Counted from the first letter of the stretch, positions 1 through 64,000 are shown. The stretch: DNA of 64,000 bases from the human T2T-CHM13v2.0 reference genome, Homo sapiens (GCA_009914755.4 CP086569.2:28704001-28768000), one strand, 5' to 3'. The notes: generated from the letters alone by a model not told the origin. Translations and numbers: made by a program.

Positions 1-851
1 CATTCCATTACATTTGATCCTATTTTATTAAATTTCATTCTATTCGAGTGATTTCCTTTCGAGTCCTTTCCATTCGATTCCATTCCATTCTATTCCATTC
101 CTTTGGATTCCATTCCATTCCGTTCCGTTCACATCCATTCCTTGCGATTCCATTACATTGGATTTCTTGCCGTTCGATTCCATTCCTTTTGACTCCATTT
201 CATTCGATTCTATTCCATTCCATTAATTTCCATTCCATTCGAGACCTTTCCATTGCAGTCTTTTCACTTCGAGTCCATTCCGTTCGATACCATTCCATTC
301 GATTCCATTCCATTGGAGTCCATACCAGTCGAGTCCATTCTATTCCAGTCCATTAGTTTCCACTCCATTGCATTCGAGTGCATTCCATTCCGTGGCTGTT
401 GATTCCATTCCGTTTGATGCCATTCCATACGATTCCATTCAATTCGAGACCATTCTATTCCTGTCCATTCCTTGCGGTTCGATTCCATTTCACTCTAGTC
501 CATTCCATTCCATTCAATTCCATTCGACTCTATTCCGTTCCATTCAATTCCATTCCATTCGATTCCATTTTTGTCGAGATCCTTCCATTACACTCCCTTC
601 CATTCCAGTGCATTCCATTCCAGTCTCTTCAGTTCGATTCCATTCCATTCGTTTAGATTCCTTTCCATTCCAGCCCATTCCATTCCATTCCATTCCTTTC
701 CTTTCCGTTTCATTAGATTCCATTGCATTCCATTCCATTCAATTCAATTCCGTGCTATTCAATTTGATTCACTTCCATTTAATTCCATTCCATTAGATTC
801 CATTCCGTACGATTCCATTCCTTTTGAATCCATTCCATTGGAGTCCATTCA

Positions 852-866
852 CTTCCAGAACATTCC
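852..866. promoter_or_regulatory. Perfect heat-shock-element trimer 'cTTCcaGAAcaTTCc' (HSE site 1 of the unit)
   Basis: Matches nTTCnnGAAnnTTCn. Recurs once per unit at the same unit coordinate (see the following features). Confidence 0.35.
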
Positions 867-1605
867 ATTCCAGTCGAATCCATTCGAGTACATTCCATTA
901 AAGTTCATTACATTCTAATACATTCCATTCCATTGCATTCCATTCCATTCCATTCGATGCCATTCGATTCCATTCCATGCCAAATCATTGCATTCCTTTC
1001 CATTCCGTTCCTATCAATTCCATTCCATTCGATTTAGTTCGATTCTATTCACTTCCATTCCATTCGATTCCATTCCATTGGAGTCAATTCCTTTCGACAC
1101 CCAGCCTTTCCAGTCAATGATTTTGGATTCCATTTTTTTGCATTCCATTACATTCTATGACATTCGATTCCGTTTCATTGCATTCCATTCCATACATTTT
1201 TATTCCATTCGAGACCGTAGCATTCCACTTTATTCCAGGCCTGTCCATTACACTACATTCCCTTCCATTCCAATGAATTCCATTCCATTCCAATCCATTC
1301 CTTTCCTTTCGCTTGCATTCCATTCTATTCCCTTCTACTGCATACAATTTCACTCCATTCGTTCCCATTCCATTCAATTCCATTCCATTCAATTCCATTC
1401 CATTTGTTTCCATTCTCTTCGATTCCATTTCTTTATATTCCATGCCATTCGAATCCATTCTATTGGATTGCATTACATTCGTGTTCATTCCATTCCAGAC
1501 CATTCCATTTGACTCCATTCCTTTCGAGCCCTTTCAATTTGAGTCCATTCCTTTCCAGTCCATTTCACTCCAGTCCATTACTATCCATTCCATCCCATTC
1601 CATAC

Positions 1606-1655
1606 CATTCCATTCCATTCCATTCCATTCCATTCCATTCCATTCCATTCCATTC
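1606..1655 (+). repeat. Perfect (CATTC)10 microsatellite core; slippage-variable (9 copies in the sister copy at 50567-50611)
   Basis: Counted directly from the sequence. The flanks '…cataccattc' and 'cattg…' are identical in both copies. Confidence 0.9.
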
Positions 1656-3104
1656 CATTGCATTCCATTCCAATCCATTCCATTGCACTGCACTCCATTC
1701 CATTACATTCTACTCTATCTGAGTCGGTTTTATTGCATTAGATTCTATTCCATTGGATTACTTTCCATTCGATTACATTCCATTCATGTACATTCCATTC
1801 CAGTCAATTACATTCGAGTTCATTACATTACATTCCAGTATATTCCATTGTATTCGATCCCATTCCTTTCAATTCCATTTCATTCGACTCCATTATATTC
1901 GATTCCATTCCACTCGAATCCTTTCCATTAGAGGACATTCCATTCCAGTGCATTCCATTCCATTCCATAGCATTCCATTGCATTCGATTCCATTCCATTT
2001 GATGCCATTCCATTTGATGCCATTCCATGACATTCCATTCCATTCGAGTCCATTCCGTTCCAATTCATTCCATTCCGTTTCATGAAATTCGAGTCCTTTC
2101 CAGTACATTTCATTCCAATCCCATCCAATCCCATCTACTCCATTCAATTCCTTTCCATTCCATTTGATTTGATTCCATTGACTTGATTCCATTCATTTTG
2201 ATTCCATTCCTTGAAATTTCGTTCCATTCTATTCCATTGCATTACTTTCCATTCCATTCCATTCCATTTCATTTCAGTCCATTCGCTTCCTTTCCTTTCG
2301 ATTCAATTCCATTTGATTCCACTCCATTCTATGCGATTTCATTCCAATCGATTCAATTCCATTCGATGACATTCCTTTCGTTTCCATTCCATTCGAGTCC
2401 ATTCAATTTGAGCATTCGTGTCCATTCTATTCGAGTCCATTCCATTACCGTCTATTCTATTCCCTTCCATTCCTGTTGATTCAATTTCATTCCCTTCCAT
2501 TCGATTCCTTTCCATTCGATTCCATTCCTTTCCATTCCATTCCATTCGTTCCCATTCCATGTGATTTCATTCCATTCCAGTCCATTATATTCGAGTCCAC
2601 TCCACTCCATTCTATTACATTCAATTCCTTTTGAGTCCGTTCCATAACACTCCATTCATTTCGATTCCATTTCTTGCCAGTTTTCTTCCATTTTATTCCT
2701 TTCCGTTCGATTCCATTCCATTCGATTGCATTCCATTCGAATCCTTTCCATTCCATTTCATTCCATTCCTTTCTATTCCATTCCATTTCATTCGATTTGA
2801 TTCCATTCTGTTCTATTCCATTCAATTCTTTTTCATTCCATTCGAATCCTTTCTATTGCAGTCCATTCCAATCCCTTCCATTCCATTCCATTACAGTCCA
2901 TTCCAATAGATTCCATTCCTTTGCCTTCCATTCGAATCCATTCCATTCTAGTCCATTCCATTTGAGTCAATTCCATTCCATTCCATTCTATTCCTTTCCA
3001 ATCCATTCGATTCCATTCGATTCAATTCCATTTGATTCTCTTTCATTCTATTTTATTCCATGCCATTTGATTGCATTGCATTCCATTCCGTTTGATTCCA
3101 GTCC

Positions 3105-3119
3105 ATTCAAGAAAGTTCC
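3105..3119. promoter_or_regulatory. Perfect heat-shock-element trimer 'aTTCaaGAAagTTCc' (HSE site 2 of the unit)
   Basis: Matches nTTCnnGAAnnTTCn. Recurs once per unit. Confidence 0.35.
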
Positions 3120-4410
3120 ATTCCAGTCCATTGCTTTCCAGTCCATTCCATTCCACTCTAGTCTATTCCACTCCATTCCTTTCCATTCCATTCCATACTA
3201 TTCCATTCCATTCCTTTGCATTCCGTTTCCAATCTATTCGAGTCCATTGCATTCCACTCCAATCCATTCGATTACATTCCTTTTGATTCCCTGCCAGTCG
3301 ATTGCATTGCATACTACACCATTCCAAAGGAGTCCATTCCATTCTATCTCAAAACTTTCCATTCCACTCTGTTCGAGTCCATTCCATTCCAGTCCATTTA
3401 ATTCAAGGGCATTCCATTCCATTCCATTCCATTCCATTTCATATTATTCCATTCCATTCAATTCCATTCCAGATGATTCCATTCCATTCTATACCATTGC
3501 TCTCTGTTCCATTCCATTCCATCTGTCTCCATTCCTTTCGTTTCGATTCCTTTCCATTCCATTCCATTACATTTGATCCTATTTTATTAAATTGCATTCT
3601 ATTCGAGTGATTTCCATTCGAGTCCTTTCCATTCGATTCCATTCCATTCTATTCCATTCCTTTGGATTCCATTCTATTCCGTTCCGTTCACATCAATTCC
3701 TTGCGATTCCATTACATTCGATTTCTTGCCATTCGATTCCATTCCTTTTGACTCCATTTCATTCGATTCCATTCCATTCCATTAATTTCCATTCCATTCG
3801 AGACCTTTCCATTGCAGTCTTTTCCCTTCGAGTCCATTCCGTTCGATTCCCTTCCATTCGATTCCATTCCATTGGAGTCTGTACCAGTCGAGTCCATTCT
3901 ATTCCAGTCCATTAGTTTCGACTCCATTGCATTCGAGTGCATTCCATTCCGTGGCTGTCCATTCCATTCCGTTTGATGCCATTCCATACGATTCATTTCA
4001 ATTCGAGACCATTCTATTCCTGTCCATTCCTTGTGGTTCGATTCCATTTCACTCTAGTCCATTCCATTCCATTCAATTCCATTCGACTCTATTCCGTTCC
4101 ATTCAATTCCATTCCATTCGATTCCATTTTTTTCGAGAACCTTCCATTACACTCCCTTCCATTCCAGTGCATTCCATTCCAGTCTTTTCAGTTCGATTCC
4201 ATTCCATTCGTTTCGATTCCTTTCCATTCCAGCCCATTCCATTCCATTCCATTCCTTTCCTTTCCGTTTCATTAGATTCCATTGCATTCCATTCCATTCA
4301 ATTCAATTCCGTGCTATTCAATTTGATTCACTTCCATTTAATTCCATTCCATTAGATTCCATTCCGTACGATTCCATTCCTTTTGAATCCATTCCATTGG
4401 AGTCCATTCA

Positions 4411-4425
4411 CTTCCAGAACATTCC
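4411..4425. promoter_or_regulatory. HSE site 1 in U2 ('cttccagaacattcc')
   Basis: Same motif, 3,559 bp after the U1 site. Confidence 0.35.
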
Positions 4426-6672
4426 ATTCCAGTCGAATCCATTCGAGTACATTCCATTAAAGTTCATTACATTCTAATACATTCCATTCCATTGCATTGC
4501 ATTCCATTCCATTCGATGCCATTCGATTCCATTCCATGCCAAATCATTGCATTCCTTTCCATTCCGTTCCTATCAATTCCATTCCATTCGATTTAGTTCG
4601 ATTCTATTCACTTCCATTCCATTCGATTCCATTCCATTGGAGTCAATTCCTTTCGACACCCAGCCTTTGCAGTCAATGATTTTGGATTCCATTTTTTTGC
4701 ATTCCATTACATTCTATGACATTCGATTCCGTTTCATTGCATTCCATTCCATACATTTTTAGTCCATTCGAGACCGTAGCATTCCACTTTATTCCAGGCC
4801 TGTCCATTACACTACATTCCCTTCCATTCCAATGAATTCCATTCCATTCCAATCCATTCCTTTCCTTTCGCTTGCATTCCATTCTATTCCCTTCTACTGC
4901 ATACAATTTCACTCATTCGTTCCCATTCCATTCAATTCCATTCCATTCAATTCCATTCCATTTGTTTCCATTCTCTTCGATTCCATTTCTTTATATTCCA
5001 TGCCATTCGATTCCATTCTATTGGATTGCATTACATTCGTGTTCATTCCATTCCAGACCATTCCATTTGACTCCATTCCTTTCGAGCCCTTTCAATTTGA
5101 GTCCATTCCTTTCCAGTCCATTTCACTCCAGTCCATTACTATCCATTCCATCCCATTCCATCCCATTCCATTCCATTCCATTCCATTCCATTCCATTCCG
5201 TTCCATTCCATTGCATTCCATTCCATTCCATTCCATTGCAGTGCACTCCATTCCATTACATTCTACTCTATCTGAGTCGGTTTTATTGCATTAGATTCTA
5301 TTCCATTGGATTACTTTCCATTCGATTACATTCCATTCATGTACATTCCATTCCAGTCAATTACATTCGAGTTCATTACATTACATTCCAGTATATTCCA
5401 TTGTATTCGATCCCATTCCTTTCAATTCCATTTCATTCGACTCCATTATATTCGATTCCATTCCACTCGAATCCATTCCATTAGAGGACATTCCATTCCA
5501 ATGCATTCCATTCCATTCCATCACATTCCATTGCATTCGATTCCATTCCATTTGATGCCATTCCATTTGATGCCATTCCATGACATTCCATTCCATTCGA
5601 GTCCATTCCGTTCCAATTCATTCCATTCCGTTTCATGAAATTCGAGTCCTTTCCAGTACATTTCATTCCAATCCCATCCAATCCAATCTACTCCATTCAA
5701 TTCCTTTCCATTCCATTTGATTTGATTCCATTGATTTGATTCCATTCAGTTTGATTCCATTCCGTGAAATTTCGTTCCATTCTATTCCATTGCATTACTT
5801 TCCATTCAATTCCATTCCATTTCATTTCAGTCCATTCGCTTCCTTTCCTTTCGATTCAATTCCATTTGATTCCACTCCATTCTATGCGATTTCATTCCAA
5901 TCGATTCAATTCCATTGGATGACATTCCTTTCGTTTCCATTCCTTTCGAGTCCATTCAATTTGAGCATTCGTGTCCATTCTATTCGAGTCCATTCCATTA
6001 CCGTCTATTCTATTCCCTTCCATTCCTGTTGATTCAATTTCATTCCCTTCCATTCGATTCCTTTCCATTCGATTCCATTCCTTTCCATTCCATTCCATTC
6101 GTTCCCATTCCATGTGATTTCATTCCATTCCAGTCCATTATATTCGAGTCCACTCCACTCCATTCTATTACATTCAATTCCTTTTGAGTCCGTTCCATAA
6201 CACTCCATTCATTTCGATTCCATTTCTTGCCAGTTTTCTTCCATTTTATTCCATTCCGTTCGATTCCATTCCATTCGATTGCATTCCATTCGAATCCTTT
6301 CCATTCCATTTCATTCCATTCCTTTCTATTCCATTCCATTTCATTCGATTTGATTCCATTCTGCTCTATTCCATTCAATTCTTTTTCATTCCATTCGAAT
6401 CCTTTCTATTGCAGTCCATTCCATTCGAGTCCATTCCAATCCCTTCCATTCCATTCCATTACAGTCCATTCCAATAGATTCCATTCCTTTGCCTTCCATT
6501 CGAATCCATTCCATTCTAGTCCATTCCATTTGAGTCAATTCCATTCCATTCCATTCTATTCCTTTCCAATCCATTCGATTCCATTCGATTCAATTCCATT
6601 TGATTCTCTTTCATTCTATTTTATTCCATGCCATTTGATTGCATTGCATTCCATTCCGTTGGATTCCAGTCC

Positions 6673-6687
6673 ATTCAAGAAAGTTCC
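6673..6687. promoter_or_regulatory. HSE site 2 in U2 ('attcaagaaagttcc')
   Basis: Same motif, 3,568 bp after the U1 site. Confidence 0.35.
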
Positions 6688-7159
6688 ATTCCAGTCCATT
6701 GCTTTCCAGTCCATTCCATTCCACTCTAGTCTATTCCACTCCATTCCTTTCCATTCCATTCCATACTATTCCATTCCATTCCTTTGCATTCCGTTTCCAA
6801 TCTATTCGAGTCCATTGCATTCCAGTCCAATCCATTCCATTACATTCCTTTTGATTCCCTGCCAGTCGATTGCATTGCATACTACACCATTCCAAAGGAG
6901 TCCATTCCATTCTATCTCAACACTTTCCATTCCACTCTGTTCGAGTCCATTCCATTCCAGTCCATTTAATTCAAGGGCATTCCATTCCATTCCATTCCAT
7001 TCCATTTCATATTATTCCATTCCATTCAATTCCATTCCAGATGATTCCATTCCATTCTATACCATTGCTCTCTGTTCCATTCCATTCCATCTGTCTCCAT
7101 TCCTTTCGTTTCGATTCCTTTCCATTCCATTCCATTCCATTTGATCCTATTTTATTAAG

Positions 7160-10100
7160 TTGCATTCTATTCGAGTGATTTCCATTCGAGTCCTTTCCAT
7201 TCGATTCCATTCCATTCTATTCCATTCCTTTGGATTCCATTCCATTCCGTTCCGTTCACATCAATTAATTGCGATTCCATTACATTCGATTTCTTGCCAT
7301 TTGATTCCATTCCTTTTGACTCCATTTCATTCGATTCCATTCCATTCCATTAATTTCCATTCCATTCGAGACCTTTCCATTGCAGTCTTTTCCCTTCGAG
7401 TCCATTCCGTTCGATTCCCTTCCATTCGATTCCATTCCATTGGAGTCCGTACCAGTCGAGTCCATTCTATTCCAGTCCATTAGTTTCGACTCCATTGCAT
7501 TCGAGTGCATTCCATTCCGTGGCTGTCCATTCCATTCCGTTTGATGCCATTCCATACGATTCCGTTCAATTCGAGACCATTCTATTCCTGTCCATTCCTT
7601 GTGGTTCGATTCCATTTCACTCTAGTCCATTCCATTCCATTCAATTCCATTCGACTCTATTCCGTTCCATTCAATTCCATTCCATTCGATTCCATTTTTT
7701 TCGAGAACCTTCCATTACACTCCCTTCCATTCCAGTGCATTCCATTCCAGTCTCTTCAGTTCGATTCCATTCCATTCGTTTCGATTCCTTTCCATTCCAG
7801 CCCATTCCATTCCATTCCATTCCTTTCCTTTCCGTTTCATTAGATTCCATTGCATTCCATTCCATTCAATTCAATTCCGTGCTATTCAATTTGATTCACT
7901 TCCATTTAATTCCATTCCATTAGATTCCATTCCGTACGATTCCATTCCTTTTGAATCCATTCCATTGGAGTCCATTCACTTCCAGAACATTCCATTCCAG
8001 TCGAATCCATTCGAGTACATTCCATTAAAGTTCATTACATTCTAATACATTCCATTCCATTGCATTCCATTCCATTCCATTCGATGCCATTCGATTCCAT
8101 TCCATGCCAAATCATTGCATTCCTTTCCATTCCGTTCCTATCAATTCCATTCCATTCGATTTAGTTCGATTCTATTCACTTCCATTCCATTCGATTCCAT
8201 TCCATTGGAGTCAATTCCTTTCGACACCCAGCCTTTCCAGTCAATGATTTTGGATTCCATTTTTTTGCATTCCATTACATTCTATGACATTCGATTCCGT
8301 TTCATTGCATTCCATTCCATACATTTTTAGTCCATTCGAGACCGTAGCATTCCACTTTATTCCAGGCCTGTCCATTACACTACATTCCCTTCCATTCCAA
8401 TGAATTCCATTCCATTCCAATCCATTCCTTTCCTTTCGCTTGCATTCCATTCTATTCCCTTCTACTGCATACAATTTCACTCATTCGTTCCCATTCCATT
8501 CAATTCCATTCCATTCAATTCCATTCCATTTGTTTCCATTCTCTTCGATTCCATTTCTTTATATTCCATGCCATTCGAATCCATTCTATTGGATTGCATT
8601 ACATTCGTGTTCATTCCATTCCAGACCATTCCATTTGACTCCATTCCTTTCGAGCCCTTTCAATTTGAGTCCATTCCTTTCCAGTCCATTTCACTCCAGT
8701 CCATTACTATCCATTCCATCCCATTCCATCCCATTCCATTCCATTCCATTCCATTCCATTCCATTCCATTCCGTTCCATTCCATTGCATTCCATTCCATT
8801 CCATTCCATTGCACTGCACTCCATTCCATTACATTCTACTCTATCTGAGTCGGTTTTATTGCATTAGATTCTATTCCATTGGATTACTTTCCATTCGATT
8901 ACATTCCATTCATGTACATTCCATTCCAGTCAATTACATTCGAGTTCATTACATTACATTCCAGTATATTCCATTGTATTCGATCCCATTCCTTTCAATT
9001 CCATTTCATTCGACTCCATTATATTCGATTCCATTCCACTCGAATCCATTCCATTAGAGGACATTCCATTCCAATGCATTCCATTCCATTCCATCACATT
9101 CCATTGCATTCGATTCCATTCCATTTGATGCCATTCCATTTGATGCCATTCCATGACATTCCATTCCATTCGAGTCCATTCCGTTCCAATTCATTCCATT
9201 CCGTTTCATGAAATTCGAGTCCTTTCCAGTACATTTCATTCCAATCCCATCCAATCCAATCTACTCCATTCAATTCCTTTCCATTCCATTTGATTTGATT
9301 CCATTGATTTGATTCCATTCAGTTTGATTCCATTCCGTGAAATTTCGTTCCATTCTATTCCATTGCATTACTTTCCATTCAATTCCATTCCATTTCATTT
9401 CAGTCCATTCGCTTCCTTTCCTTTCGATTCAATTCCATTTGATTCCACTCCATTCTATGCGATTTCATTCCAATCGATTCAATTCCATTGGATGACATTC
9501 CTTTCGTTTCCATTCCTTTCGAGTCCATTCAATTTGAGCATTCGTGTCCATTCTATTCGAGTCCATTCCATTACCGTCTATTCTATTCCCTTCCATTCCT
9601 GTTGATTCAATTTCATTCCCTTCCATTCGATTCCTTTCCATTCGATTCCATTCCTTTCCATTCCATTCCATTCGTTCCCATTCCATGTGATTTCATTCCA
9701 TTCCAGTCCATTATATTCGAGTCCACTCCACTCCATTCTATTACATTCAATTCCTTTTGAGTCCGTTCCATAACACTCCATTCATTTCGATTCCATTTCT
9801 TGCCAGTTTTCTTCCATTTTATTCCATTCCGTTCGATTCCATTCCATTCGATTGCATTCCATTCGAATCCTTTCCATTCCATTTCATTCCATTCCTTTCT
9901 ATTCCATTCCATTTCATTCGATTTGATTCCATTCTGTTCTATTCCATTCAATTCTTTTTCATTCCATTCGAATCCTTTCTATTGCAGTCCATTCCATTCG
10001 AGTCCATTCCAATCCCTTCCATTCCATTCCATTACAGTCCATTCCAATAGATTCCATTCCTTTGCCTTCCATTCGAATCCATTCCATTCTAGTCCATTCC

Positions 10101-52547: not shown

Positions 52548-55500
52548 TTGCATTCTATTCGAGTGATTTCCATTCGAGTCCTTTCCATTCGATTCCATTC
52601 CATTCTATTCCATTCCTTTGGATTCCATTCTATTCCGTTCCGTTCACATCAATTCCTTGCGATTCCATTACATTCGATTTCTTGCCATTCGATTCCATTC
52701 CTTTTGACTCCATTTCATTCGATTCCATTCCATTCCATTAATTTCCATTCCATTCGAGACCTTTCCATTGCAGTCTTTTCCCTTCGAGTCCATTCCGTTC
52801 GATTCCCTTCCATTCGATTCCATTCCATTGGAGTCTGTACCAGTCGAGTCCATTCTATTCCAGTCCATTAGTTTCGACTCCATTGCATTCGAGTGCATTC
52901 CATTCCGTGGCTGTCCATTCCATTCCGTTTGATGCCATTCCATACGATTCATTTCAATTCGAGACCATTCTATTCCTGTCCATTCCTTGTGGTTCGATTC
53001 CATTTCACTCTAGTCCATTCCATTCCATTCAATTCCATTCGACTCTATTCCGTTCCATTCAATTCCATTCCATTCGATTCCATTTTTTTCGAGAACCTTC
53101 CATTACACTCCCTTCCATTCCAGTGCATTCCATTCCAGTCTTTTCAGTTCGATTCCATTCCATTCGTTTCGATTCCTTTCCATTCCAGCCCATTCCATTC
53201 CATTCCATTCCTTTCCTTTCCGTTTCATTAGATTCCATTGCATTCCATTCCATTCAATTCAATTCCGTGCTATTCAATTTGATTCACTTCCATTTAATTC
53301 CATTCCATTAGATTCCATTCCGTACGATTCCATTCCTTTTGAATCCATTCCATTGGAGTCCATTCACTTCCAGAACATTCCATTCCAGTCGAATCCATTC
53401 GAGTACATTCCATTAAAGTTCATTACATTCTAATACATTCCATTCCATTGCATTGCATTCCATTCCATTCGATGCCATTCGATTCCATTCCATGCCAAAT
53501 CATTGCATTCCTTTCCATTCCGTTCCTATCAATTCCATTCCATTCGATTTAGTTCGATTCTATTCACTTCCATTCCATTCGATTCCATTCCATTGGAGTC
53601 AATTCCTTTCGACACCCAGCCTTTGCAGTCAATGATTTTGGATTCCATTTTTTTGCATTCCATTACATTCTATGACATTCGATTCCGTTTCATTGCATTC
53701 CATTCCATACATTTTTAGTCCATTCGAGACCGTAGCATTCCACTTTATTCCAGGCCTGTCCATTACACTACATTCCCTTCCATTCCAATGAATTCCATTC
53801 CATTCCAATCCATTCCTTTCCTTTCGCTTGCATTCCATTCTATTCCCTTCTACTGCATACAATTTCACTCATTCGTTCCCATTCCATTCAATTCCATTCC
53901 ATTCAATTCCATTCCATTTGTTTCCATTCTCTTCGATTCCATTTCTTTATATTCCATGCCATTCGATTCCATTCTATTGGATTGCATTACATTCGTGTTC
54001 ATTCCATTCCAGACCATTCCATTTGACTCCATTCCTTTCGAGCCCTTTCAATTTGAGTCCATTCCTTTCCAGTCCATTTCACTCCAGTCCATTACTATCC
54101 ATTCCATCCCATTCCATCCCATTCCATTCCATTCCATTCCATTCCATTCCATTCCGTTCCATTCCATTGCATTCCATTCCATTCCATTCCATTGCAGTGC
54201 ACTCCATTCCATTACATTCTACTCTATCTGAGTCGGTTTTATTGCATTAGATTCTATTCCATTGGATTACTTTCCATTCGATTACATTCCATTCATGTAC
54301 ATTCCATTCCAGTCAATTACATTCGAGTTCATTACATTACATTCCAGTATATTCCATTGTATTCGATCCCATTCCTTTCAATTCCATTTCATTCGACTCC
54401 ATTATATTCGATTCCATTCCACTCGAATCCATTCCATTAGAGGACATTCCATTCCAATGCATTCCATTCCATTCCATCACATTCCATTGCATTCGATTCC
54501 ATTCCATTTGATGCCATTCCATTTGATGCCATTCCATGACATTCCATTCCATTCGAGTCCATTCCGTTCCAATTCATTCCATTCCGTTTCATGAAATTCG
54601 AGTCCTTTCCAGTACATTTCATTCCAATCCCATCCAATCCAATCTACTCCATTCAATTCCTTTCCATTCCATTTGATTTGATTCCATTGATTTGATTCCA
54701 TTCAGTTTGATTCCATTCCGTGAAATTTCGTTCCATTCTATTCCATTGCATTACTTTCCATTCAATTCCATTCCATTTCATTTCAGTCCATTCGCTTCCT
54801 TTCCTTTCGATTCAATTCCATTTGATTCCACTCCATTCTATGCGATTTCATTCCAATCGATTCAATTCCATTGGATGACATTCCTTTCGTTTCCATTCCT
54901 TTCGAGTCCATTCAATTTGAGCATTCGTGTCCATTCTATTCGAGTCCATTCCATTACCGTCTATTCTATTCCCTTCCATTCCTGTTGATTCAATTTCATT
55001 CCCTTCCATTCGATTCCTTTCCATTCGATTCCATTCCTTTCCATTCCATTCCATTCGTTCCCATTCCATGTGATTTCATTCCATTCCAGTCCATTATATT
55101 CGAGTCCACTCCACTCCATTCTATTACATTCAATTCCTTTTGAGTCCGTTCCATAACACTCCATTCATTTCGATTCCATTTCTTGCCAGTTTTCTTCCAT
55201 TTTATTCCATTCCGTTCGATTCCATTCCATTCGATTGCATTCCATTCGAATCCTTTCCATTCCATTTCATTCCATTCCTTTCTATTCCATTCCATTTCAT
55301 TCGATTTGATTCCATTCTGCTCTATTCCATTCAATTCTTTTTCATTCCATTCGAATCCTTTCTATTGCAGTCCATTCCATTCGAGTCCATTCCAATCCCT
55401 TCCATTCCATTCCATTACAGTCCATTCCAATAGATTCCATTCCTTTGCCTTCCATTCGAATCCATTCCATTCTAGTCCATTCCATTTGAGTCAATTCCAT

Positions 55501-56115
55501 TCCATTCCATTCTATTCCTTTCCAATCCATTCGATTCCATTCGATTCAATTCCATTTGATTCTCTTTCATTCTATTTTATTCCATGCCATTTGATTGCAT
55601 TGCATTCCATTCCGTTGGATTCCAGTCCATTCAAGAAAGTTCCATTCCAGTCCATTGCTTTCCAGTCCATTCCATTCCACTCTAGTCTATTCCACTCCAT
55701 TCCTTTCCATTCCATTCCATACTATTCCATTCCATTCCTTTGCATTCCGTTTCCAATCTATTCGAGTCCATTGCATTCCAGTCCAATCCATTCCATTACA
55801 TTCCTTTTGATTCCCTGCCAGTCGATTGCATTGCATACTACACCATTCCAAAGGAGTCCATTCCATTCTATCTCAACACTTTCCATTCCACTCTGTTCGA
55901 GTCCATTCCATTCCAGTCCATTTAATTCAAGGGCATTCCATTCCATTCCATTCCATTCCATTTCATATTATTCCATTCCATTCAATTCCATTCCAGATGA
56001 TTCCATTCCATTCTATACCATTGCTCTCTGTTCCATTCCATTCCATCTGTCTCCATTCCTTTCGTTTCGATTCCTTTCCATTCCATTCCATTCCATTTGA
56101 TCCTATTTTATTAAG
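52548..56115 (+). repeat. HOR unit U16 (3,568 bp), copy of U2
   Basis: Same length as U2 and identical ORF-track translations. Confidence 0.8.
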
Positions 56116-59100
56116 TTGCATTCTATTCGAGTGATTTCCATTCGAGTCCTTTCCATTCGATTCCATTCCATTCTATTCCATTCCTTTGGATTCCATTCCA
56201 TTCCGTTCCGTTCACATCAATTAATTGCGATTCCATTACATTCGATTTCTTGCCATTTGATTCCATTCCTTTTGACTCCATTTCATTCGATTCCATTCCA
56301 TTCCATTAATTTCCATTCCATTCGAGACCTTTCCATTGCAGTCTTTTCCCTTCGAGTCCATTCCGTTCGATTCCCTTCCATTCGATTCCATTCCATTGGA
56401 GTCCGTACCAGTCGAGTCCATTCTATTCCAGTCCATTAGTTTCGACTCCATTGCATTCGAGTGCATTCCATTCCGTGGCTGTCCATTCCATTCCGTTTGA
56501 TGCCATTCCATACGATTCCGTTCAATTCGAGACCATTCTATTCCTGTCCATTCCTTGTGGTTCGATTCCATTTCACTCTAGTCCATTCCATTCCATTCAA
56601 TTCCATTCGACTCTATTCCGTTCCATTCAATTCCATTCCATTCGATTCCATTTTTTTCGAGAACCTTCCATTACACTCCCTTCCATTCCAGTGCATTCCA
56701 TTCCAGTCTCTTCAGTTCGATTCCATTCCATTCGTTTCGATTCCTTTCCATTCCAGCCCATTCCATTCCATTCCATTCCTTTCCTTTCCGTTTCATTAGA
56801 TTCCATTGCATTCCATTCCATTCAATTCAATTCCGTGCTATTCAATTTGATTCACTTCCATTTAATTCCATTCCATTAGATTCCATTCCGTACGATTCCA
56901 TTCCTTTTGAATCCATTCCATTGGAGTCCATTCACTTCCAGAACATTCCATTCCAGTCGAATCCATTCGAGTACATTCCATTAAAGTTCATTACATTCTA
57001 ATACATTCCATTCCATTGCATTCCATTCCATTCCATTCGATGCCATTCGATTCCATTCCATGCCAAATCATTGCATTCCTTTCCATTCCGTTCCTATCAA
57101 TTCCATTCCATTCGATTTAGTTCGATTCTATTCACTTCCATTCCATTCGATTCCATTCCATTGGAGTCAATTCCTTTCGACACCCAGCCTTTCCAGTCAA
57201 TGATTTTGGATTCCATTTTTTTGCATTCCATTACATTCTATGACATTCGATTCCGTTTCATTGCATTCCATTCCATACATTTTTAGTCCATTCGAGACCG
57301 TAGCATTCCACTTTATTCCAGGCCTGTCCATTACACTACATTCCCTTCCATTCCAATGAATTCCATTCCATTCCAATCCATTCCTTTCCTTTCGCTTGCA
57401 TTCCATTCTATTCCCTTCTACTGCATACAATTTCACTCATTCGTTCCCATTCCATTCAATTCCATTCCATTCAATTCCATTCCATTTGTTTCCATTCTCT
57501 TCGATTCCATTTCTTTATATTCCATGCCATTCGAATCCATTCTATTGGATTGCATTACATTCGTGTTCATTCCATTCCAGACCATTCCATTTGACTCCAT
57601 TCCTTTCGAGCCCTTTCAATTTGAGTCCATTCCTTTCCAGTCCATTTCACTCCAGTCCATTACTATCCATTCCATCCCATTCCATCCCATTCCATTCCAT
57701 TCCATTCCATTCCATTCCATTCCATTCCGTTCCATTCCATTGCATTCCATTCCATTCCATTCCATTGCACTGCACTCCATTCCATTACATTCTACTCTAT
57801 CTGAGTCGGTTTTATTGCATTAGATTCTATTCCATTGGATTACTTTCCATTCGATTACATTCCATTCATGTACATTCCATTCCAGTCAATTACATTCGAG
57901 TTCATTACATTACATTCCAGTATATTCCATTGTATTCGATCCCATTCCTTTCAATTCCATTTCATTCGACTCCATTATATTCGATTCCATTCCACTCGAA
58001 TCCATTCCATTAGAGGACATTCCATTCCAATGCATTCCATTCCATTCCATCACATTCCATTGCATTCGATTCCATTCCATTTGATGCCATTCCATTTGAT
58101 GCCATTCCATGACATTCCATTCCATTCGAGTCCATTCCGTTCCAATTCATTCCATTCCGTTTCATGAAATTCGAGTCCTTTCCAGTACATTTCATTCCAA
58201 TCCCATCCAATCCAATCTACTCCATTCAATTCCTTTCCATTCCATTTGATTTGATTCCATTGATTTGATTCCATTCAGTTTGATTCCATTCCGTGAAATT
58301 TCGTTCCATTCTATTCCATTGCATTACTTTCCATTCAATTCCATTCCATTTCATTTCAGTCCATTCGCTTCCTTTCCTTTCGATTCAATTCCATTTGATT
58401 CCACTCCATTCTATGCGATTTCATTCCAATCGATTCAATTCCATTGGATGACATTCCTTTCGTTTCCATTCCTTTCGAGTCCATTCAATTTGAGCATTCG
58501 TGTCCATTCTATTCGAGTCCATTCCATTACCGTCTATTCTATTCCCTTCCATTCCTGTTGATTCAATTTCATTCCCTTCCATTCGATTCCTTTCCATTCG
58601 ATTCCATTCCTTTCCATTCCATTCCATTCGTTCCCATTCCATGTGATTTCATTCCATTCCAGTCCATTATATTCGAGTCCACTCCACTCCATTCTATTAC
58701 ATTCAATTCCTTTTGAGTCCGTTCCATAACACTCCATTCATTTCGATTCCATTTCTTGCCAGTTTTCTTCCATTTTATTCCATTCCGTTCGATTCCATTC
58801 CATTCGATTGCATTCCATTCGAATCCTTTCCATTCCATTTCATTCCATTCCTTTCTATTCCATTCCATTTCATTCGATTTGATTCCATTCTGTTCTATTC
58901 CATTCAATTCTTTTTCATTCCATTCGAATCCTTTCTATTGCAGTCCATTCCATTCGAGTCCATTCCAATCCCTTCCATTCCATTCCATTACAGTCCATTC
59001 CAATAGATTCCATTCCTTTGCCTTCCATTCGAATCCATTCCATTCTAGTCCATTCCATTTGAGTCAATTCCATTCCATTCCATTCTATTCCTTTCCAATC

Positions 59101-59688
59101 CATTCGATTCCATTCGATTCAATTCCATTTGATTCTCTTTCATTCTATTTTATTCCATGCCATTTGATTGCATTGCATTCCATTCCGTTGGATTCCAGTC
59201 CATTCAAGAAAGTTCCATTCCAGTCCATTGCTTTCCAGTCCATTCCATTCCACTCTAGTCTATTCCACTCCATTCCTTTCCATTCCATTCCATACTATTC
59301 CATTCCATTCCTTTGCATTCCGTTTCCAATCTATTCGAGTCCATTGCATTCCAGTCCAATCCATTCCATTACATTCCTTTTGATTCCCTGCCAGTCGATT
59401 GCATTGCATACTACACCATTCCAAAGGAGTCCATTCCATTCTATCTCAACACTTTCCATTCCACTCTGTTCGAGTCCATTCCATTCCAGTCCATTTAATT
59501 CAAGGGCATTCCATTCCATTCCATTCCATTCCATTTCATATTATTCCATTCCATTCAATTCCATTCCAGATGATTCCATTCCATTCTATACCATTGCTCT
59601 CTGTTCCATTCCATTCCATCTGTCTCCATTCCTTTCGTTTCGATTCCTTTCCATTCCATTCCATTCCATTTGATCCTATTTTATTAAG
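56116..59688 (+). repeat. HOR unit U17 (3,573 bp), copy of U3
   Basis: Same length as U3 and identical ORF-track translations. Confidence 0.8.
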
Positions 59689-62600
59689 TTGCATTCTATT
59701 CGAGTGATTTCCATTCGAGTCCTTTCCATTCGATTCCATTCCATTCTATTCCATTCCTTTGGATTCCATTCCATTCCGTTCCGTTCACATCAATTAATTG
59801 CGATTCCATTACATTCGATTTCTTGCCATTTGATTCCATTCCTTTTGACTCCATTTCATTCGATTCCATTCCATTCCATTAATTTCCATTCCATTCGAGA
59901 CCTTTCCATTGCAGTCTTTTCCCTTCGAGTCCATTCCGTTCGATTCCCTTCTATTCGATTCCATTCCATTGGAGTCCGTACCAGTCGAGTCCATTCTATT
60001 CCAGTCCATTAGTTTCGACTCCATTGCATTCGAGTGCATTCCATTCCGTGGCTGTCCATTCCATTCCGTTTGATGCCATTCCATACGATTCCATTCAATT
60101 CGAGACCATTCTATTCCTGTCCATTCCTTGCGGTTCGATTCCATTTCACTCTAGTCCATTCCATTCCATTCAATTCCATTCGACTCTATTCCGTTCCATT
60201 CAATTCCATTCCATTCGATTCCATTTTTTTCGAGAACCTTCCATTACACTCCCTTCCATTCCAGTGCATTCCATTCCAGTCTCTTCAGTTCGATTCCATT
60301 CCATTCGTTTAGATTCCTTTCCATTCCAGCCCATTCCATTCCATTCCATTCCTTTCCTTTCCGTTTCATTAGATTCCATTGCATTCCATTCCATTCAATT
60401 CAATTCCGTGCTATTCAATTTGATTCACTTCCATTTAATTCCATTCCATTAGATTCCATTCCGTACGATTCCATTCCTTTTGAATCCATTCCATTGGAGT
60501 CCATTCACTTCCAGAACATTCCATTCCAGTCGAATCCATTCGAGTACATTCCATTAAAGTTCATTACATTCTAATACATTCCATTCCATTGCATTCCATT
60601 CCATTCCATTCGATGCCATTCGATTCCATTCCATGCCAAATCATTGCATTCCTTTCCATTCCGTTCCTATCAATTCCATTCCATTCGATTTAGTTCGATT
60701 CTATTCACTTCCATTCCATTCGATTCCATTCCATTGGAGTCAATTCCTTTCGACACCCAGCCTTTGCAGTCAATGATTTTGGATTCCATTTTTTTGCATT
60801 CCATTACATTCTATGACATTCGATTCCGTTTCATTGCATTCCATTCCATACATTTTTATTCCATTCGAGACCGTAGCATTCCACTTTATTCCAGGCCTGT
60901 CCATTACACTACATTCCCTTCCATTCCAATGAATTCCATTCCATTCCAATCCATTCCTTTCCTTTCGCTTGCATTCCATTCTATTCCCTTCTACTGCATA
61001 CAATTTCACTCCATTCGTTCCCATTCCATTCAATTCCATTCCATTCAATTCCATTCCATTTGTTTCCATTCTCTTCGATTCCATTTCTTTATATTCCATG
61101 CCATTCGATTCCATTCTAATGGATTGCATTACATTCGTGTTCATTCCATTCCAGACCATTCCATTTGACTCCATTCCTTTCGAGCCCTTTCAATTTGAGT
61201 CCATTCCTTTCCAGTCCATTTCACTCCAGTCCATTACTATCCATTCCATACCATTCCATCCCATTCCATTCCATTCCATTCCATTCCATTCCATTCCATT
61301 CCATTGCATTCCATTCCATTCCATTCCATTGCACTGCACTCCATTCCATTACATTCTACTCTATCTGAGTCGGTTTTATTGCATTAGATTCTATTCCATT
61401 GGATTACTTTCCATTCGATTACATTCCATTCATGTACATTCCATTCCAGTCAATTACATTCGAGTTCATTACATTACATTCCAGTATATTCCATTGTATT
61501 CGATCCCATTCCTTTCAATTCCATTTCATTCGACTCCATTATATTCGATTCCATTCCACTCGAATCCATTCCATTAGAGGACATTCCATTCCAATGCATT
61601 CCATTCCATTCCATAACATTCCATTGCATTCGATTCCATTCCATTTGATGCCATTCCATTTGATGCCATTCCATGACATTCCATTCCATTCGAGTCCATT
61701 CCGTTCCAATTCATTCCATTCCTTTTCATGAAATTCGAGTCCTTTCCAGTACATTTCATTCCAATCCCATCCAATCCAATCTACTCCATTCAATTCCTTT
61801 CCATTCCATTTGATTAGATTCCATTGATTTGATTCCATTCAGTTTGATTCCATTCCGTGAAATTTCGTTCCATTCTATTCCATTGCATTACTTTCCATTC
61901 AATTCCATTCCATTTCATTTCAGTCCATTCGCTTCCTTTCCTTTCGATTCAATTCCATTTGATTCCACTCCATTCTATGCGATTTCATTCCAATCGATTC
62001 AATTCCATTCGATGACATTCCTTTCGTTTCCATTCCATTCGAGTCCATTCAATTTGAGCATTCGTGTCCATTCTATTCGAGTCCATTCCATTACCGTCTA
62101 TTCTATTCCCTTCCATTCCTGTTGATTCAATTTCATTCCCTTCTATTCGATTCCTTTCCATTCGATTCCATTCCTTTCCATTCCATTCCATTCGTTCCCA
62201 TTCCATCTGATTTCATTCCATTCCAGTCCATTATATTCGAGTCCACTCCACTCCATTCTATTACATTCAATTCCTTTTGAGTCCGTTCCATAACACTCCA
62301 TTAATTTCGATTCCATTTCTTGCCAGTTTTCTTCCATTTTATTCCATTCCGTTCGATTCCATTCCATTCGATTGCATTCCATTCGAATCCTTTCCATTCC
62401 ATTTCATTCCATTCCTTTCTATTCCATTCCATTTCATTCGATTTGATTCCATTCTGTTCTATTCCATTCAATTCTTTTTCATTCCATTCGAATCCTTTCT
62501 ATTGCAGTCCATTCCATTCGAGTCCATTCCAGTCCCTTCCATTCCATTCCATTACAGTCCATTGCAATAGATTCCATTCCTTTGCCTTCCATTCGAATCC

Positions 62601-63252
62601 ATTCCATTCTAGTCCATTCCATTTGAGTCAATTCCATTCCATTCCATTCTATTCCTTTCCAATCCATTCGATTCCATTCGATTCAATTCCATTTGATTCT
62701 CTTTCATTCTATTTTATTCCATGCCATTTGATTGCATTGCATTCCATTCCGTTTGATTCCAGTCCATTCAAGAAAGTTCCATTCCAGTCCATTGCTTTCC
62801 AGTCTATTCCATTCCACTCTAGTCTATTCCACTCCATTCCTTTCCATTCCATTCCATACTATTCCATTCCATTCCTTTGCATTCCGTTTCCAATCTATTC
62901 GAGTCCATTGCATTCCAGTCCAATCCATTCGATTACATTCCTTTTGATTCCCTGCCAGTCGATTGCATTGCATACTACACCATTCCAAAGGAGTCCATTC
63001 CATTCTATCTCAACACTTTCCATTCCACTCTGTTCGAGTCCATTCCATTCCAGTCCATTTAATTCAAGGGCATTCCATTCCATTCCATTCCATTCCATTT
63101 CATATTATTCCATTCCATTCAATTCCATTCCAGATGATTCCATTCCATTCTATACCATTGCTCTCTGTTCCATTCCATTCCATCTGTCTCCATTCCTTTC
63201 GTTTCGATTCCTTTCCATTCCATTCCATTACATTTGATCCTATTTTATTAAA
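59689..63252 (+). repeat. HOR unit U18 (3,564 bp), copy of U4
   Basis: Same length as U4 and identical ORF-track translations. Confidence 0.8.
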
Positions 63253-64000
63253 TTGCATTCTATTCGAGTGATTTCCATTCGAGTCCTTTCCATTCGATTC
63301 CATTCCATTCTATTCCATTCCTTTGGATTCCATTCCATTCCGTTCCGTTCACATCAATTCCTTGCGATTCCATTACATTCGATTTCTTGCCATTCGATTC
63401 CATTCCTTTTGACTCCATTTCATTCGATTCCATTCCATTCCATTAATTTCCATTCCATTCGAGACCTTTCCATTGCAGTCTTTTCCCTTCGAGTCCATTC
63501 CGTTCGATTCCCTTCCATTCGATTCCATTCCATTGGAGTCCGTACCAGTCGAGTCCATTCTATTCCAGTCCATTAGTTTCGACTCCATTGCATTCGAGTG
63601 CATTCCATTCCGTGGCTGTCCATTCCATTCCGTTTGATGCCATTCCATACGATTCCATTCAATTCGAGACCATTCTATTCCTGTCCATTCCTTGCGGTTC
63701 GATTCCATTTCACTCTAGTCCATTCCATTCCATTCAATTCCATTCGACTCTATTCCGTTCCATTCAATTCCATTCCATTCGATTCCATTTTTTTCGAGAA
63801 CCTTCCATTACACTCCCTTCCATTCCAGTGCATTCCATTCCAGTCTCTTCAGTTCGATTCCATTCCATTCGTTTAGATTCCTTTCCATTCCAGCCCATTC
63901 CATTCCATTCCATTCCTTTCCTTTCCGTTTCATTAGATTCCATTGCATTCCATTCCATTCAATTCAATTCCGTGCTATTCAATTTGATTCACTTCCATTT
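63253..64000 (+). repeat. HOR unit U19 (partial, 748 bp), copy of the start of U5
   Basis: ORF-track translations identical to 14297-15044. Confidence 0.75.

What the first reader, a model, noticed from the sequence alone, without database searches (positions are those of the whole stretch)
1..64000. Entire window is a 3.56-kb-period Satellite III array with DYZ1 hallmarks
A landmark period of 3,539-3,583 bp, (CATTC)n composition, one EcoRI (GAATTC, e.g. 1275-1280) and one HaeIII (GGCC, e.g. 1238-1241 inside AGGCCT) site per unit reproduce the textbook description of DYZ1. DYZ1 is the male-specific 3.56-kb pentanucleotide repeat that fills much of Yq12. No interspersed transposons, genes or other satellite families (e.g. 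DYZ2/HSat1B) occur in the 64 kb, so the window lies inside one homogeneous block.
Basis: partly seen in the sequence, partly recalled or inferred. Interest (0 to 1): 0.5.

Follow-up and report, generated by a model that had tools for sequence, protein, structure and literature searches.

The report
Human Y-chromosome DYZ1 satellite array

Summary
The finding holds up. The window contains 17 complete and 2 partial head-to-tail copies of a ~3.56-kb repeat made of diverged CATTC pentamers, all in one orientation, with no transposon, gene or other satellite.

Identity with DYZ1 (HSat3A6) was tested against published sequence:
- A 400-nt stretch of the Nakahori type clone matches once per unit at 96.5–99.0%.
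- The HSat3A6-specific 24-mer occurs 30 times; markers of the other 13 HSat2/3 subfamilies occur 0 times.
- A published DYZ qPCR assay and seven mapped DYZ1 primers hit once per unit at or near published map positions.
- The unit consensus is exactly 3,564 bp.
- GC content and CpG density match published DYZ1 values.

- Unit length ranges 3,524–3,583 bp, and one unit is 2,673 bp because of an 863-bp internal deletion.
- Only 13 of 18 units keep the HaeIII site.
- Three adjacent units are divergent (96–97.6%).

Also seen: a near-identical copy of at least 15 kb at a 49-kb offset, a 7.1-kb two-unit duplication, and three perfect heat-shock elements per unit. Published ChIP shows HSF1 binding this Yq12 satellite.

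Y-chromosomal location could not be tested directly because no human assembly was available. This is already known and of low interest.

The parts
1..64000 (+). Uninterrupted DYZ1 (HSat3A6) array, CATTC strand on +; 2 partial and 17 full units
1..1274 (+). Partial unit u00 (3' part of a unit, up to the first EcoRI site); near-identical to 48962-50235
1275..4833 (+). Unit u01, 3,559 bp (EcoRI-phased)
4834..8401 (+). Unit u02, 3,568 bp
8402..11974 (+). Unit u03, 3,573 bp
11975..15538 (+). Unit u04, 3,564 bp, no indel relative to the consensus, 13 mismatches; closest to the canonical unit
15539..19092 (+). Unit u05, 3,554 bp
19093..22675 (+). Unit u06, 3,583 bp
22676..29813 (+). Units u07+u08 (3,579 + 3,559 bp): first copy of a 7.14-kb two-unit duplication
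   Evidence: 12 mismatches and one 1-bp indel against 29814-36950
29814..36950 (+). Units u09+u10 (3,579 + 3,558 bp): second copy of the two-unit duplication
36951..40474 (+). Unit u11, 3,524 bp
40475..43147 (+). Short unit u12, 2,673 bp: a DYZ1 unit with one 863-bp internal deletion (junction after 41047) between ~22-bp direct repeats TCCTTTC[A/C]ATTCCATTTCATTC; otherwise 96-100% DYZ1 along its length
43148..46691 (+). Unit u13, 3,544 bp, the most divergent (96.3-97.6% to the others)
46692..50235 (+). Unit u14, 3,544 bp, divergent (96.6-97.6%); HaeIII site changed to GCCC
50236..53789 (+). Unit u15, 3,554 bp, a near-identical copy of u01
53790..57357 (+). Unit u16, 3,568 bp, a copy of u02
57358..60930 (+). 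Unit u17, 3,573 bp, a copy of u03
60931..64000 (+). Partial unit u18, a copy of the start of u04
48962..64000 (+). Second copy of window 1-15044 (offset 48,956/48,961 bp, 14 units): 2 mismatches and one 5-bp indel in 15,039 bp; the match is cut by both window ends
852..1251 (-). Match to the printed 400-nt fragment of the Nakahori DYZ1 clone X06228.1 (99.0%, ungapped); 17 further copies, one per unit
1237..1242 (.). AGGCCT containing the HaeIII site GGCC (example); present in 13 of 18 units
1275..1280 (.). EcoRI site GAATTC (example); exactly one per unit, 18 in all
3933..3987 (+). 55-bp amplicon of the published human DYZ qPCR assay (forward primer, probe, reverse primer all exact; example). 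17 copies have exact primers; 2 more, in u12 and u13, have 2 and 1 forward-primer mismatches
3538..3561 (+). HSat3A6-specific 24-mer TCGTTTCGATTCCTTTCCATTCCA (example; 30 exact copies)
853..865 (+). Perfect heat-shock element A, TTCCAGAACATTC (GAATGTTCTGGAA on the - strand); 18 copies. It ends the printed fragment that contains the published HSF1 ChIP amplicon
4132..4144 (+). Perfect heat-shock element B, TTCGAGAACCTTC; 15 copies, lost in 4 units
3106..3118 (+). Perfect heat-shock element C, TTCAAGAAAGTTC; 18 copies

Best explanation
The window is an internal piece of a DYZ1 array (HSat3 subfamily A6) from the Yq12 heterochromatin of a human Y chromosome. It holds about 18 head-to-tail copies of a 3,564-bp higher-order repeat. 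That repeat is about 713 diverged copies of the pentamer CATTC with only four phase shifts and no intermediate sub-repeat.

It encodes nothing. It is constitutive heterochromatin whose sequence is kept homogeneous, and whose length changes, by replication slippage and unequal exchange between misaligned repeats on the non-recombining Y. The traces of that process are visible in the window (shown):
- Nearly all indels between units are multiples of 5 bp.
- One unit lost 863 bp between two ~22-bp direct repeats.
- A two-unit (7.14-kb) block is duplicated in tandem.
- At least 15 kb recurs almost unchanged 14 units (49 kb) downstream.

The one sequence-specific activity documented for this satellite is stress-induced transcription. 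Each unit carries three perfect trimeric heat-shock elements (shown). Published ChIP and FISH show HSF1 binding Yq12 SatIII on heat shock, which drives SATIII non-coding RNA and nuclear stress bodies that recruit SRSF1 (from the literature; not shown for these particular copies). The published RNA-FISH probe detects (GGAAU)n, which corresponds to the minus strand of this window.
For: Structure:
- Period, EcoRI phasing and unit identity.
- The consensus is 3,564 bp and indels are multiples of 5.
- No internal sub-repeat; only ~70% self-similarity at offsets that are mostly multiples of 5; five phase segments.

Identity:
- Nakahori clone fragment at 99.0% to the consensus, once per unit; off-register matches only 70-72%.
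- HSat3A6 24-mer 30 times, the other 13 subfamily markers 0 times.
- Published 3,564-bp unit length assigned to chromosome Y.
- DYZ qPCR assay.
- DYZ1 primers A-G at or within about 15 bp of published map offsets, and the listed single-cutter enzymes cutting 0.72-1.5 times per unit.
- GC and CpG density equal to published DYZ1 values.
- Unit identity agrees with 'vast majority over 98%' in T2T-Y.
- Six contaminant contigs in unrelated bacterial assemblies are 98.2-99.6% identical over their full length. This is the contamination pattern T2T-Y described for Y HSat3.

Turnover:
- Duplications and the deletion junction.
- T2T-Y reports iterative tandem duplications and sister-chromatid exchange in Yq12.

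HSF1:
- 51 perfect HSEs against about 1 in shuffles, at three fixed positions per unit.
- HSF1 ChIP, the requirement for Yq12, and SRSF1 recruitment.
Against: - No human genome assembly was available, so Y-chromosomal placement is inferred from published marker specificity. Altemose's flow-sorted data also gave a minor (~94 kb) HSat3A6 signal on chr7, which the authors regard as uncertain.
- The type clone could be compared over only 400 of 3,564 nt.
- I find three perfect HSEs per unit under the strict 13-nt definition. The paper reports four in X06228.1, and its definition could not be reproduced.
- HSE retention (51 of 54) is no higher than neutral expectation from 1% divergence (P = 0.33). 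This window therefore gives no evidence that the HSEs are under selection, as opposed to being carried along by amplification.
- The near-perfect 49-kb repeat could in principle be an assembly artefact.
Confidence: 0.96

Rival explanations
1. An autosomal HSat3 array with a similar higher-order length, above all HSat3A5 (D15Z1) on chromosome 15, whose published unit is 1.8/3.6 kb, or HSat3B5 on 9q12.
For: Same pentamer and a similar 3.6-kb period for the chr15 subfamily (Altemose Table S1). HSat3 occurs on many chromosomes.
Against: - The subfamily-specific 24-mers of HSat3A5 and HSat3B5 have 0 exact hits, with best Hamming distances of 3 and 2, against 30 exact hits for HSat3A6.
- No KpnI site anywhere in the window.
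- No CAACCCGA/TCGGGTTG B-type motif.
- 99% identity to the Y clone X06228.1.
Confidence: 0.01
2. A different Y-linked pentameric array rather than Yq12 DYZ1 proper: DYZ17/HSat3A3, the pericentromeric Yq11.1 array with a 3.36-kb repeat, or the DYZ18-region 3.1-kb and 2.7-kb arrays at the Yq11/Yq12 border. The 2.7-kb repeat is 77% DYZ1-derived.
For: - One unit is 2,673 bp and three units are about 97% identical to the consensus, the same figure Hallast et al. give for the DYZ1-derived part of the 2.7-kb repeat.
- Peripheral units of arrays are reported to be more divergent.
Against: - 16 of 17 full units are 3.52-3.58 kb, and the consensus is 3,564 bp.
- The single short unit is a plain deletion derivative with even 96-100% identity to DYZ1 in every 200-column window. 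It has no ~600-bp segment of lower identity, as a DYZ18-derived part would give.
- The HSat3A3 marker is absent.
- No DYZ18 sequence was available for a direct comparison.
Confidence: 0.03
3. A homologous Y satellite from a non-human great ape, or another non-human source.
For: [quoted passage not shown] No species label comes with the window.
Against: - 99% identity to a human clone.
- Exact matches to 24-mers defined on a human genome (HuRef).
- Exact matches to human qPCR and PCR primers at or near their published map positions.
- A 3,564-bp consensus equal to the human unit.
- My inference, not tested: such identity is not expected for a rapidly turning-over satellite after more than 6 million years.
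Confidence: 0.01
4. About the sub-feature only: the near-identical 15-kb repeat at a 49-kb offset is an assembly artefact (a falsely duplicated or mis-joined stretch) rather than a real recent duplication.
For: 99.99% identity over 15 kb, cut by both window ends. Long satellite arrays are the hardest regions to assemble, and Hallast et al. note unplaced Yq12 contigs.
Against: - The two copies are not perfectly identical: 2 substitutions plus a 5-bp change in a (CATTC)n tract.
- Large recent tandem duplications are documented in Yq12.
- The intervening 34 kb contains distinct unit variants that would anchor long reads.
Confidence: 0.15

Closest known systems
DYZ1 = HSat3A6, the 3.56-kb Y-specific Satellite III repeat of Yq12 (Nakahori et al. 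1986, GenBank X06228.1; Altemose et al. 2014; Rhie et al. 2023; Hallast et al. 2023)
   Same: - Pentamer CATTC/TTCCA base.
- 3,564-bp consensus unit.
- One EcoRI site per unit, and a HaeIII site in most units.
- 99% identity to the printed part of the type clone.
- The subfamily-specific 24-mer.
- Primer and probe sites at or near published map positions.
- 38-39% GC and 1 CpG per 35 bp.
- Units mostly over 98% identical.
- 5- and 15-bp indels between units, as reported between cloned units.
   Different: Nothing that goes beyond known intra-array variation. Five units lack the HaeIII site, one unit carries an 863-bp deletion, and three adjacent units are 2.4-3.7% divergent.
HSat3A5 / D15Z1, the chromosome-15 Satellite III with a 1.8/3.6-kb KpnI unit
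   Same: CATTC-based satellite with a higher-order period near 3.6 kb.
   Different: Its marker 24-mer is absent (best match has 3 mismatches), and there is no KpnI site in 64 kb.
The 2.7-kb repeat of the DYZ18 subregion (Hallast et al. 2023), a DYZ18/DYZ1 chimera
   Same: One unit here is 2,673 bp and about 97% identical to DYZ1.
   Different: Here it is a single unit inside a 3.56-kb array. It is a simple 863-bp deletion derivative with no segment of foreign origin.
9q12 Satellite III (HSat3B5), the classical HSF1 target that nucleates nuclear stress bodies
   Same: A pentameric SatIII carrying heat-shock elements. Published work shows Yq12 SatIII behaves the same way on heat shock.
   Different: A different subfamily: the B-type CAACCCGA motif and the HSat3B5 marker are absent here. 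In DYZ1 the perfect HSEs sit at three fixed positions of a long higher-order unit.

Membership tests
DYZ1 / HSat3A6 | Built from the pentamer CATTC (TTCCA / GGAAT) | tested here: met
   TRF finds period 5 with consensus TTCCA. 34% of the window is exact CATTC and 73% is within 1 mismatch.
DYZ1 / HSat3A6 | Higher-order unit of about 3.56 kb (3,564 bp in the type clone) | tested here: met
   16 of 17 EcoRI intervals are 3,524-3,583 bp. The majority consensus is exactly 3,564 bp. Published length.
DYZ1 / HSat3A6 | Sequence identity to the type clone X06228.1 | tested here: met
   The 400 nt printed in PMC7889540 Fig. S4 match at 99.0% to the consensus and 96.5-99.0% to each of 18 copies, ungapped. 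The other 3,164 nt of the clone were not available.
DYZ1 / HSat3A6 | Carries HSat3A6-specific 24-mers and lacks those of other HSat2/3 subfamilies | tested here: met
   30 exact hits against 0 for each of the other 13 subfamilies. Only the top marker per subfamily was tested, because the held part of the full list contains no 3A6 rows.
DYZ1 / HSat3A6 | One HaeIII site per unit (the classical 3.4/3.56-kb male-specific HaeIII band) | tested here: met
   13 of 18 units keep GGCC. 8 of 12 HaeIII intervals are 3,554-3,573 bp and the rest are multimers. The modal fragment in complete assemblies is 3,569 bp.
DYZ1 / HSat3A6 | One EcoRI site per unit, and the restriction map of cloned units | tested here: met
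   18 EcoRI sites, one per unit. 18 enzymes listed as single cutters of cloned units cut 0.72-1.5 times per unit.
DYZ1 / HSat3A6 | Published DYZ/DYZ1 PCR primers and probe present at their mapped positions | tested here: met
   - qPCR assay: 17 exact and 2 near-exact amplicons of 55 bp.
- Primers A-G lie at or within about 15 bp of the published offsets from the HaeIII site.
- Primer H as printed lacks one base and could not be matched without a gap.
- The Kogan Y1.1/Y1.2 primers also match (154 bp), but I recalled their sequences from memory and could not find them in the library.
DYZ1 / HSat3A6 | Composition: about 38% GC and 1 CpG per 35 bp | tested here: met
   38.8% GC and 1 CpG per 35.5 bp, against the Hallast et al. 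values.
DYZ1 / HSat3A6 | Male-specific; located in Yq12, alternating with DYZ2 (HSat1B) blocks | not testable with these tools
   No human assembly or read sets were available. No DYZ2 junction lies in the window, which fits published DYZ1 block sizes of 50 kb to 3.6 Mb.
HSat3A5 (chr15 D15Z1) | Subfamily-specific 24-mer; KpnI 1.8/3.6-kb unit | tested here: not met
   0 hits, best Hamming distance 3. No GGTACC in the window.
HSat3 B-type subfamilies (e.g. 9q12 HSat3B5) | Interspersed CAACCCGA(A/G)T motif (from general knowledge) and subfamily 24-mers | tested here: not met
   The motif and its complement occur 0 times. The 3B1-3B5 markers have 0 hits.
2.7-kb DYZ18/DYZ1 chimeric repeat (Hallast 2023) | About 23% of the unit derived from DYZ18; arranged as its own tandem array | tested here: not met
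   There is a single 2,673-bp unit. Every 200-column window of it is 96-100% identical to DYZ1, and it differs by one 863-bp deletion. This is indirect, because no DYZ18 sequence was at hand.
HSF1-responsive SATIII loci (nuclear stress body nucleators) | Canonical trimeric heat-shock elements in the repeat | tested here: met
   51 perfect TTCnnGAAnnTTC sites against about 1 in shuffles, three positions per unit. One of them is the HSE at the end of the printed fragment holding the published ChIP amplicon.
HSF1-responsive SATIII loci (nuclear stress body nucleators) | HSF1 occupancy and heat-induced transcription | not testable with these tools
   Known only from PMC7889540 for Yq12 as a whole.

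The most novel reading that the evidence does not exclude
The window shows 1.3 periods of a 14-unit (~49-kb) super-repeat. It contains a fixed deletion unit, three old divergent units and a nested two-unit duplication, and its copies differ by only 2 substitutions in 15 kb. If this super-unit is itself tandemly iterated, part of Yq12 would be organised as a second-order higher-order repeat. That repeat would have been amplified very recently, on the order of 10^4-10^5 years by a crude Y mutation-rate estimate. It could serve as a lineage-specific structural marker of Y haplogroups.
Probability: 0.3. Interest if true: 0.2.

Novelty: already known. Interest (0 to 1): 0.08.

Why it matters
It matters little as a discovery. 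DYZ1 has been known since the 1970s-80s and is fully assembled in T2T-Y and in 43 or more further Y chromosomes. The practical value lies elsewhere:
- The window can be labelled confidently as human male-specific heterochromatin.
- It illustrates at base resolution how such arrays turn over: pentamer-register slippage, deletion between internal direct repeats, and multi-unit block duplication.
- The same sequence turns up as a contaminant in public bacterial assemblies.

Tried and rejected
- Literature search for the exact Kogan Y1.1/Y1.2 primer strings, whole, spaced and as substrings, found nothing. Those matches rest on my memory and are given little weight.
- A search for 'DYZ1 primers 154 bp' returned an unrelated sex-typing paper.
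- The Nakahori 1986 paper (PMC311781) is not held.
- The stored part of Altemose's full 24-mer list contains only HSat2A1 rows, so only the 14 Table-1 markers were used.
- The Rfam scan found nothing.
- ORF listing gives 45 ORFs of at least 150 aa, all on the + strand. I rejected them as genes: (CATTC)n has no stop codon in any frame, most start at TTG, and they recur with the repeat.
- I looked for an intermediate sub-repeat inside the unit and found none.
- I tested whether the short unit or the divergent units hide a foreign (DYZ18-like) segment. They do not.
- I tested whether the HSEs are better conserved than background. They are not.
- I did not use protein-homology, structure, phage/plasmid/E. 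coli or metagenome tools, because they cannot bear on a human satellite.

Full report
OBSERVATION

The window is a single, uninterrupted pentameric satellite.
- Base composition is constant: GC 0.38-0.40 and GC skew -0.54 to -0.60 in every 2-kb bin. The array therefore never changes orientation.
- Exact CATTC covers 34% of the bases, its complement 0.008%, and CATTC within one mismatch 73%.
- Tandem Repeats Finder reports one array of period 5 with consensus TTCCA.
- On top of the pentamer lies a long period. Nearest-neighbour offsets of 24-mers pile up at 3,544-3,583 bp.
- GAATTC occurs 18 times, exactly once per period, at 1275, 4834... 60931.
- Cutting at EcoRI gives 17 full units and 2 partial ones. 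The full units are 96.3-100% identical pairwise, mean 98.3%.
- Nothing else is present. There is no Rfam family (so no 7SL/Alu-like match), no poly-A run and no KpnI site. The longest stretch that departs from the pentamer is 25 bp and is itself part of every unit.
- The 45 ORFs of at least 150 aa all lie on the CATTC strand and recur with the repeat. (CATTC)n has no stop codon in any frame, so these are compositional artefacts.

- Unit lengths are 3,524-3,583 bp, and one unit (40475-43147) is 2,673 bp.
- The HaeIII/StuI site is kept in 13 of 18 units only.
- The block is not uniform: units u12-u14 (40475-50235) are 2.4-3.7% divergent from the rest and from each other.

WHAT IT IS

No human genome is among the tools, so I tested identity against published sequence.

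1. Altemose et al. [quoted passage not shown] The HSat3A6 marker has 30 exact hits here. HSat3A6 is the subfamily they equate with DYZ1 and localise to Y. The other 13 markers have none. That includes HSat3A5 of chromosome 15, the only other subfamily with a published ~3.6-kb unit.
2. Supplementary Fig. S4 of PMC7889540 prints 400 nt of the Nakahori DYZ1 type clone X06228.1. It matches the minus strand once per unit, 18 times, without gaps. Identity is 96.5-99.0%, and 99.0% to the window consensus. Out-of-register matches reach only 70-72%.
3. The majority consensus of the 17 units is exactly 3,564 bp, the published unit length, and unit u04 has that length with no indel.
4. A published human DYZ qPCR assay (PMC4184833) is found as a 55-bp amplicon in the order forward primer, probe, reverse primer. 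There are 17 copies with exact primers and 2 more with 1-2 forward-primer mismatches in the divergent units.
5. Seven of eight DYZ1 primers of PMC3925983 map about once per unit (16-19 hits each), in the published order. Their offsets from the HaeIII site equal or lie within about 15 bp of the published coordinates: 763, 861, about 1668, about 2570, about 2640 and -35. Primer H as printed lacks one base of GGCC, so an ungapped search cannot find it. The 18 enzymes that cut cloned units once cut 0.72-1.5 times per unit here.
6. GC content (38.8%) and CpG density (1 per 35.5 bp) equal the DYZ1 values of Hallast et al. (38%, 1 per 35 bp). Unit identity fits T2T-Y's 'vast majority over 98%'.
7. 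A scan of 185,579 bacterial and archaeal species genomes found six small contigs with an exact 33-mer. They come from unrelated 'bacterial' assemblies: Actinomadura, three Streptomyces, Senimuribacter and a Polyangiaceae MAG. They are 98.2-99.6% identical to the window over their full lengths. One is 3,637 bp with a 63-bp terminal overlap, which is a collapsed 3,574-bp unit. This is the human-Y HSat3 contamination that the T2T-Y paper described.

ANATOMY AND TURNOVER

The unit has no intermediate sub-repeat. Internal self-similarity is a flat ~70% at offsets that are mostly multiples of 5, and the pentamer register shifts only four times in 3,564 bp. There is a weak 15-bp super-period: shift-15 identity is 0.69 against 0.64 at shift 5, and 57% of TaqI spacings are multiples of 15.

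Differences between units show how the array evolves.
- Nearly all indels are 5, 10, 15 or 25 bp. The same kind of 5- and 15-bp indels was reported between cloned DYZ1 units.
- The short unit lost 863 bp between two ~22-bp direct repeats, TCCTTTC[A/C]ATTCCATTTCATTC, with the junction after 41047. Otherwise it is evenly 96-100% DYZ1. It is therefore a deletion derivative, not the DYZ18/DYZ1 chimeric 2.7-kb repeat of Hallast et al..
- Units u07+u08 (22676-29813) are duplicated as u09+u10 (29814-36950) with 12 mismatches, split unevenly as 1 and 11.
- Window 1-15044 recurs at 48962-64000 with 2 substitutions and one 5-bp change in a (CATTC)n tract. This is a 14-unit, ~49-kb offset whose true extent is hidden by both window ends.

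T2T-Y documents iterative tandem duplications and sister-chromatid exchange in Yq12. The inferred mechanism is unequal exchange plus slippage on a non-recombining chromosome. Crude ages from a general Y substitution rate (my assumption of 0.8e-9 per bp per year) are about 8e4 years for the 49-kb copy, with 95% limits of 1e4-3e5 years. These should not be leaned on.

FUNCTION

The array is non-coding heterochromatin. The one sequence-specific activity documented for it is heat-shock-induced transcription.

PMC7889540 reports the following:
- HSF1 foci form on Yq12 in male cells.
- A Y chromosome lacking Yq12 does not form them.
- HSF1 ChIP enriches a Y-specific SatIII amplicon.
- SRSF1 is recruited to these sites.

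In the window:
- Both ChIP primers are present, spanning 1081-1247 (one exact, the other with one mismatch) and 215 bp from a perfect HSE.
- There are 51 perfect trimeric HSEs (TTCnnGAAnnTTC on the + strand) against about 1 in dinucleotide shuffles.
- They sit at three fixed positions per unit: site A 18 copies, B 15, C 18.
- The excess over shuffles simply reflects amplification of a unit that contains them.
- Their retention (51 of 54) is what 1% neutral divergence predicts (0.916, P = 0.33). This window therefore offers no evidence of selection on them.
- The paper counts four HSEs in X06228.1 under a definition I could not reproduce.

COMPARISON, NOVELTY, VERDICT

Every testable defining feature of DYZ1/HSat3A6 is met. 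The features of its nearest rivals are not met: chr15 HSat3A5, B-type HSat3, and the 2.7-kb DYZ18-region repeat. Y-chromosomal placement and the alternation with DYZ2 could not be tested here. A non-human ape origin is very unlikely given 99% identity to a human clone and exact human markers, but it was not excluded by direct alignment.

The finding is a correct identification of a long-known satellite. It is already known and of low interest. The most novel reading left open is that the 14-unit, 49-kb block is a recently amplified second-order repeat. That would be a minor structural detail of a kind already described for Yq12.

Noticed in passing
window 1-15044 vs 48962-64000: At least 15 kb recurs 48,956/48,961 bp (14 units) downstream with only 2 substitutions and one 5-bp indel in a (CATTC)n tract near 1610-1654. 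The match is cut by both window ends, so the window may show 1.3 copies of a ~49-kb super-repeat. An assembly artefact is not excluded.
   Followed up: partly
window 22676-29813 vs 29814-36950: Tandem duplication of a two-unit (7.14-kb) block with very uneven divergence: 1 mismatch in the first unit pair and 11 in the second. This hints at later conversion or two separate events.
   Followed up: partly
window 40475-43147 (junction after 41047): A 2,673-bp unit produced by an 863-bp deletion between two ~22-bp direct repeats, TCCTTTC[A/C]ATTCCATTTCATTC. It has no foreign sequence, so it is distinct from the published 2.7-kb DYZ18/DYZ1 repeat.
   Followed up: yes
window 40475-50235: Three adjacent units (u12-u14) are 96.3-97.6% identical to the rest and to each other, and share variants in overlapping pairs (u12+u13: 27, u13+u14: 30, all three: 13). 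They form an island of older variants inside a ~99% homogeneous array, sitting just before the start of the second copy of the 49-kb repeat.
   Followed up: partly
whole window, e.g. 853-865, 3106-3118, 4132-4144: Three perfect trimeric heat-shock elements per unit (51 in all, about 1 expected in shuffles). One is the HSE at the end of the printed fragment that holds the published HSF1 ChIP amplicon. Their conservation does not exceed the neutral expectation.
   Followed up: yes
whole window: Differences between units have an unusual spectrum: transitions/transversions = 0.71, and variants at CpG positions are only about 2-fold enriched. CpG itself is not depleted (observed/expected 1.10), although the region is reported to be methylated. 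In 49 of 263 variants the new base equals the base 5 nt away. This suggests that processes other than ordinary point mutation (out-of-register conversion or slippage), or sequencing error, contribute.
   Followed up: partly
whole window: A 15-bp super-period is stronger than the 5-bp one: self-identity is 0.69 at shift 15 against 0.64 at shift 5. TaqI sites are most often 15 or 30 bp apart. CATTCGATTCCATTC is the commonest 15-mer that is not pure (CATTC)n.
   Followed up: no
L001-L006 (BMRF01000076.1, BMTH01000092.1, BMUF01000112.1, CALPCJ010000057.1, BMTN01000077.1, CAYVXY010000078.1): Contigs of 0.7-3.6 kb in assemblies labelled Actinomadura cremea, three Streptomyces species (JCM strains), Senimuribacter sp. 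and a Polyangiaceae MAG are 98.2-99.6% identical to this satellite over their full length. They are human male DNA contamination in public bacterial genome records.
   Followed up: yes
window 988-63237, + strand: 45 ORFs of 150-430 aa, all on the CATTC strand and mostly starting at TTG, recur with the repeat. They arise because the pentamer lacks stop codons, and a gene caller could mis-call them as proteins.
   Followed up: yes
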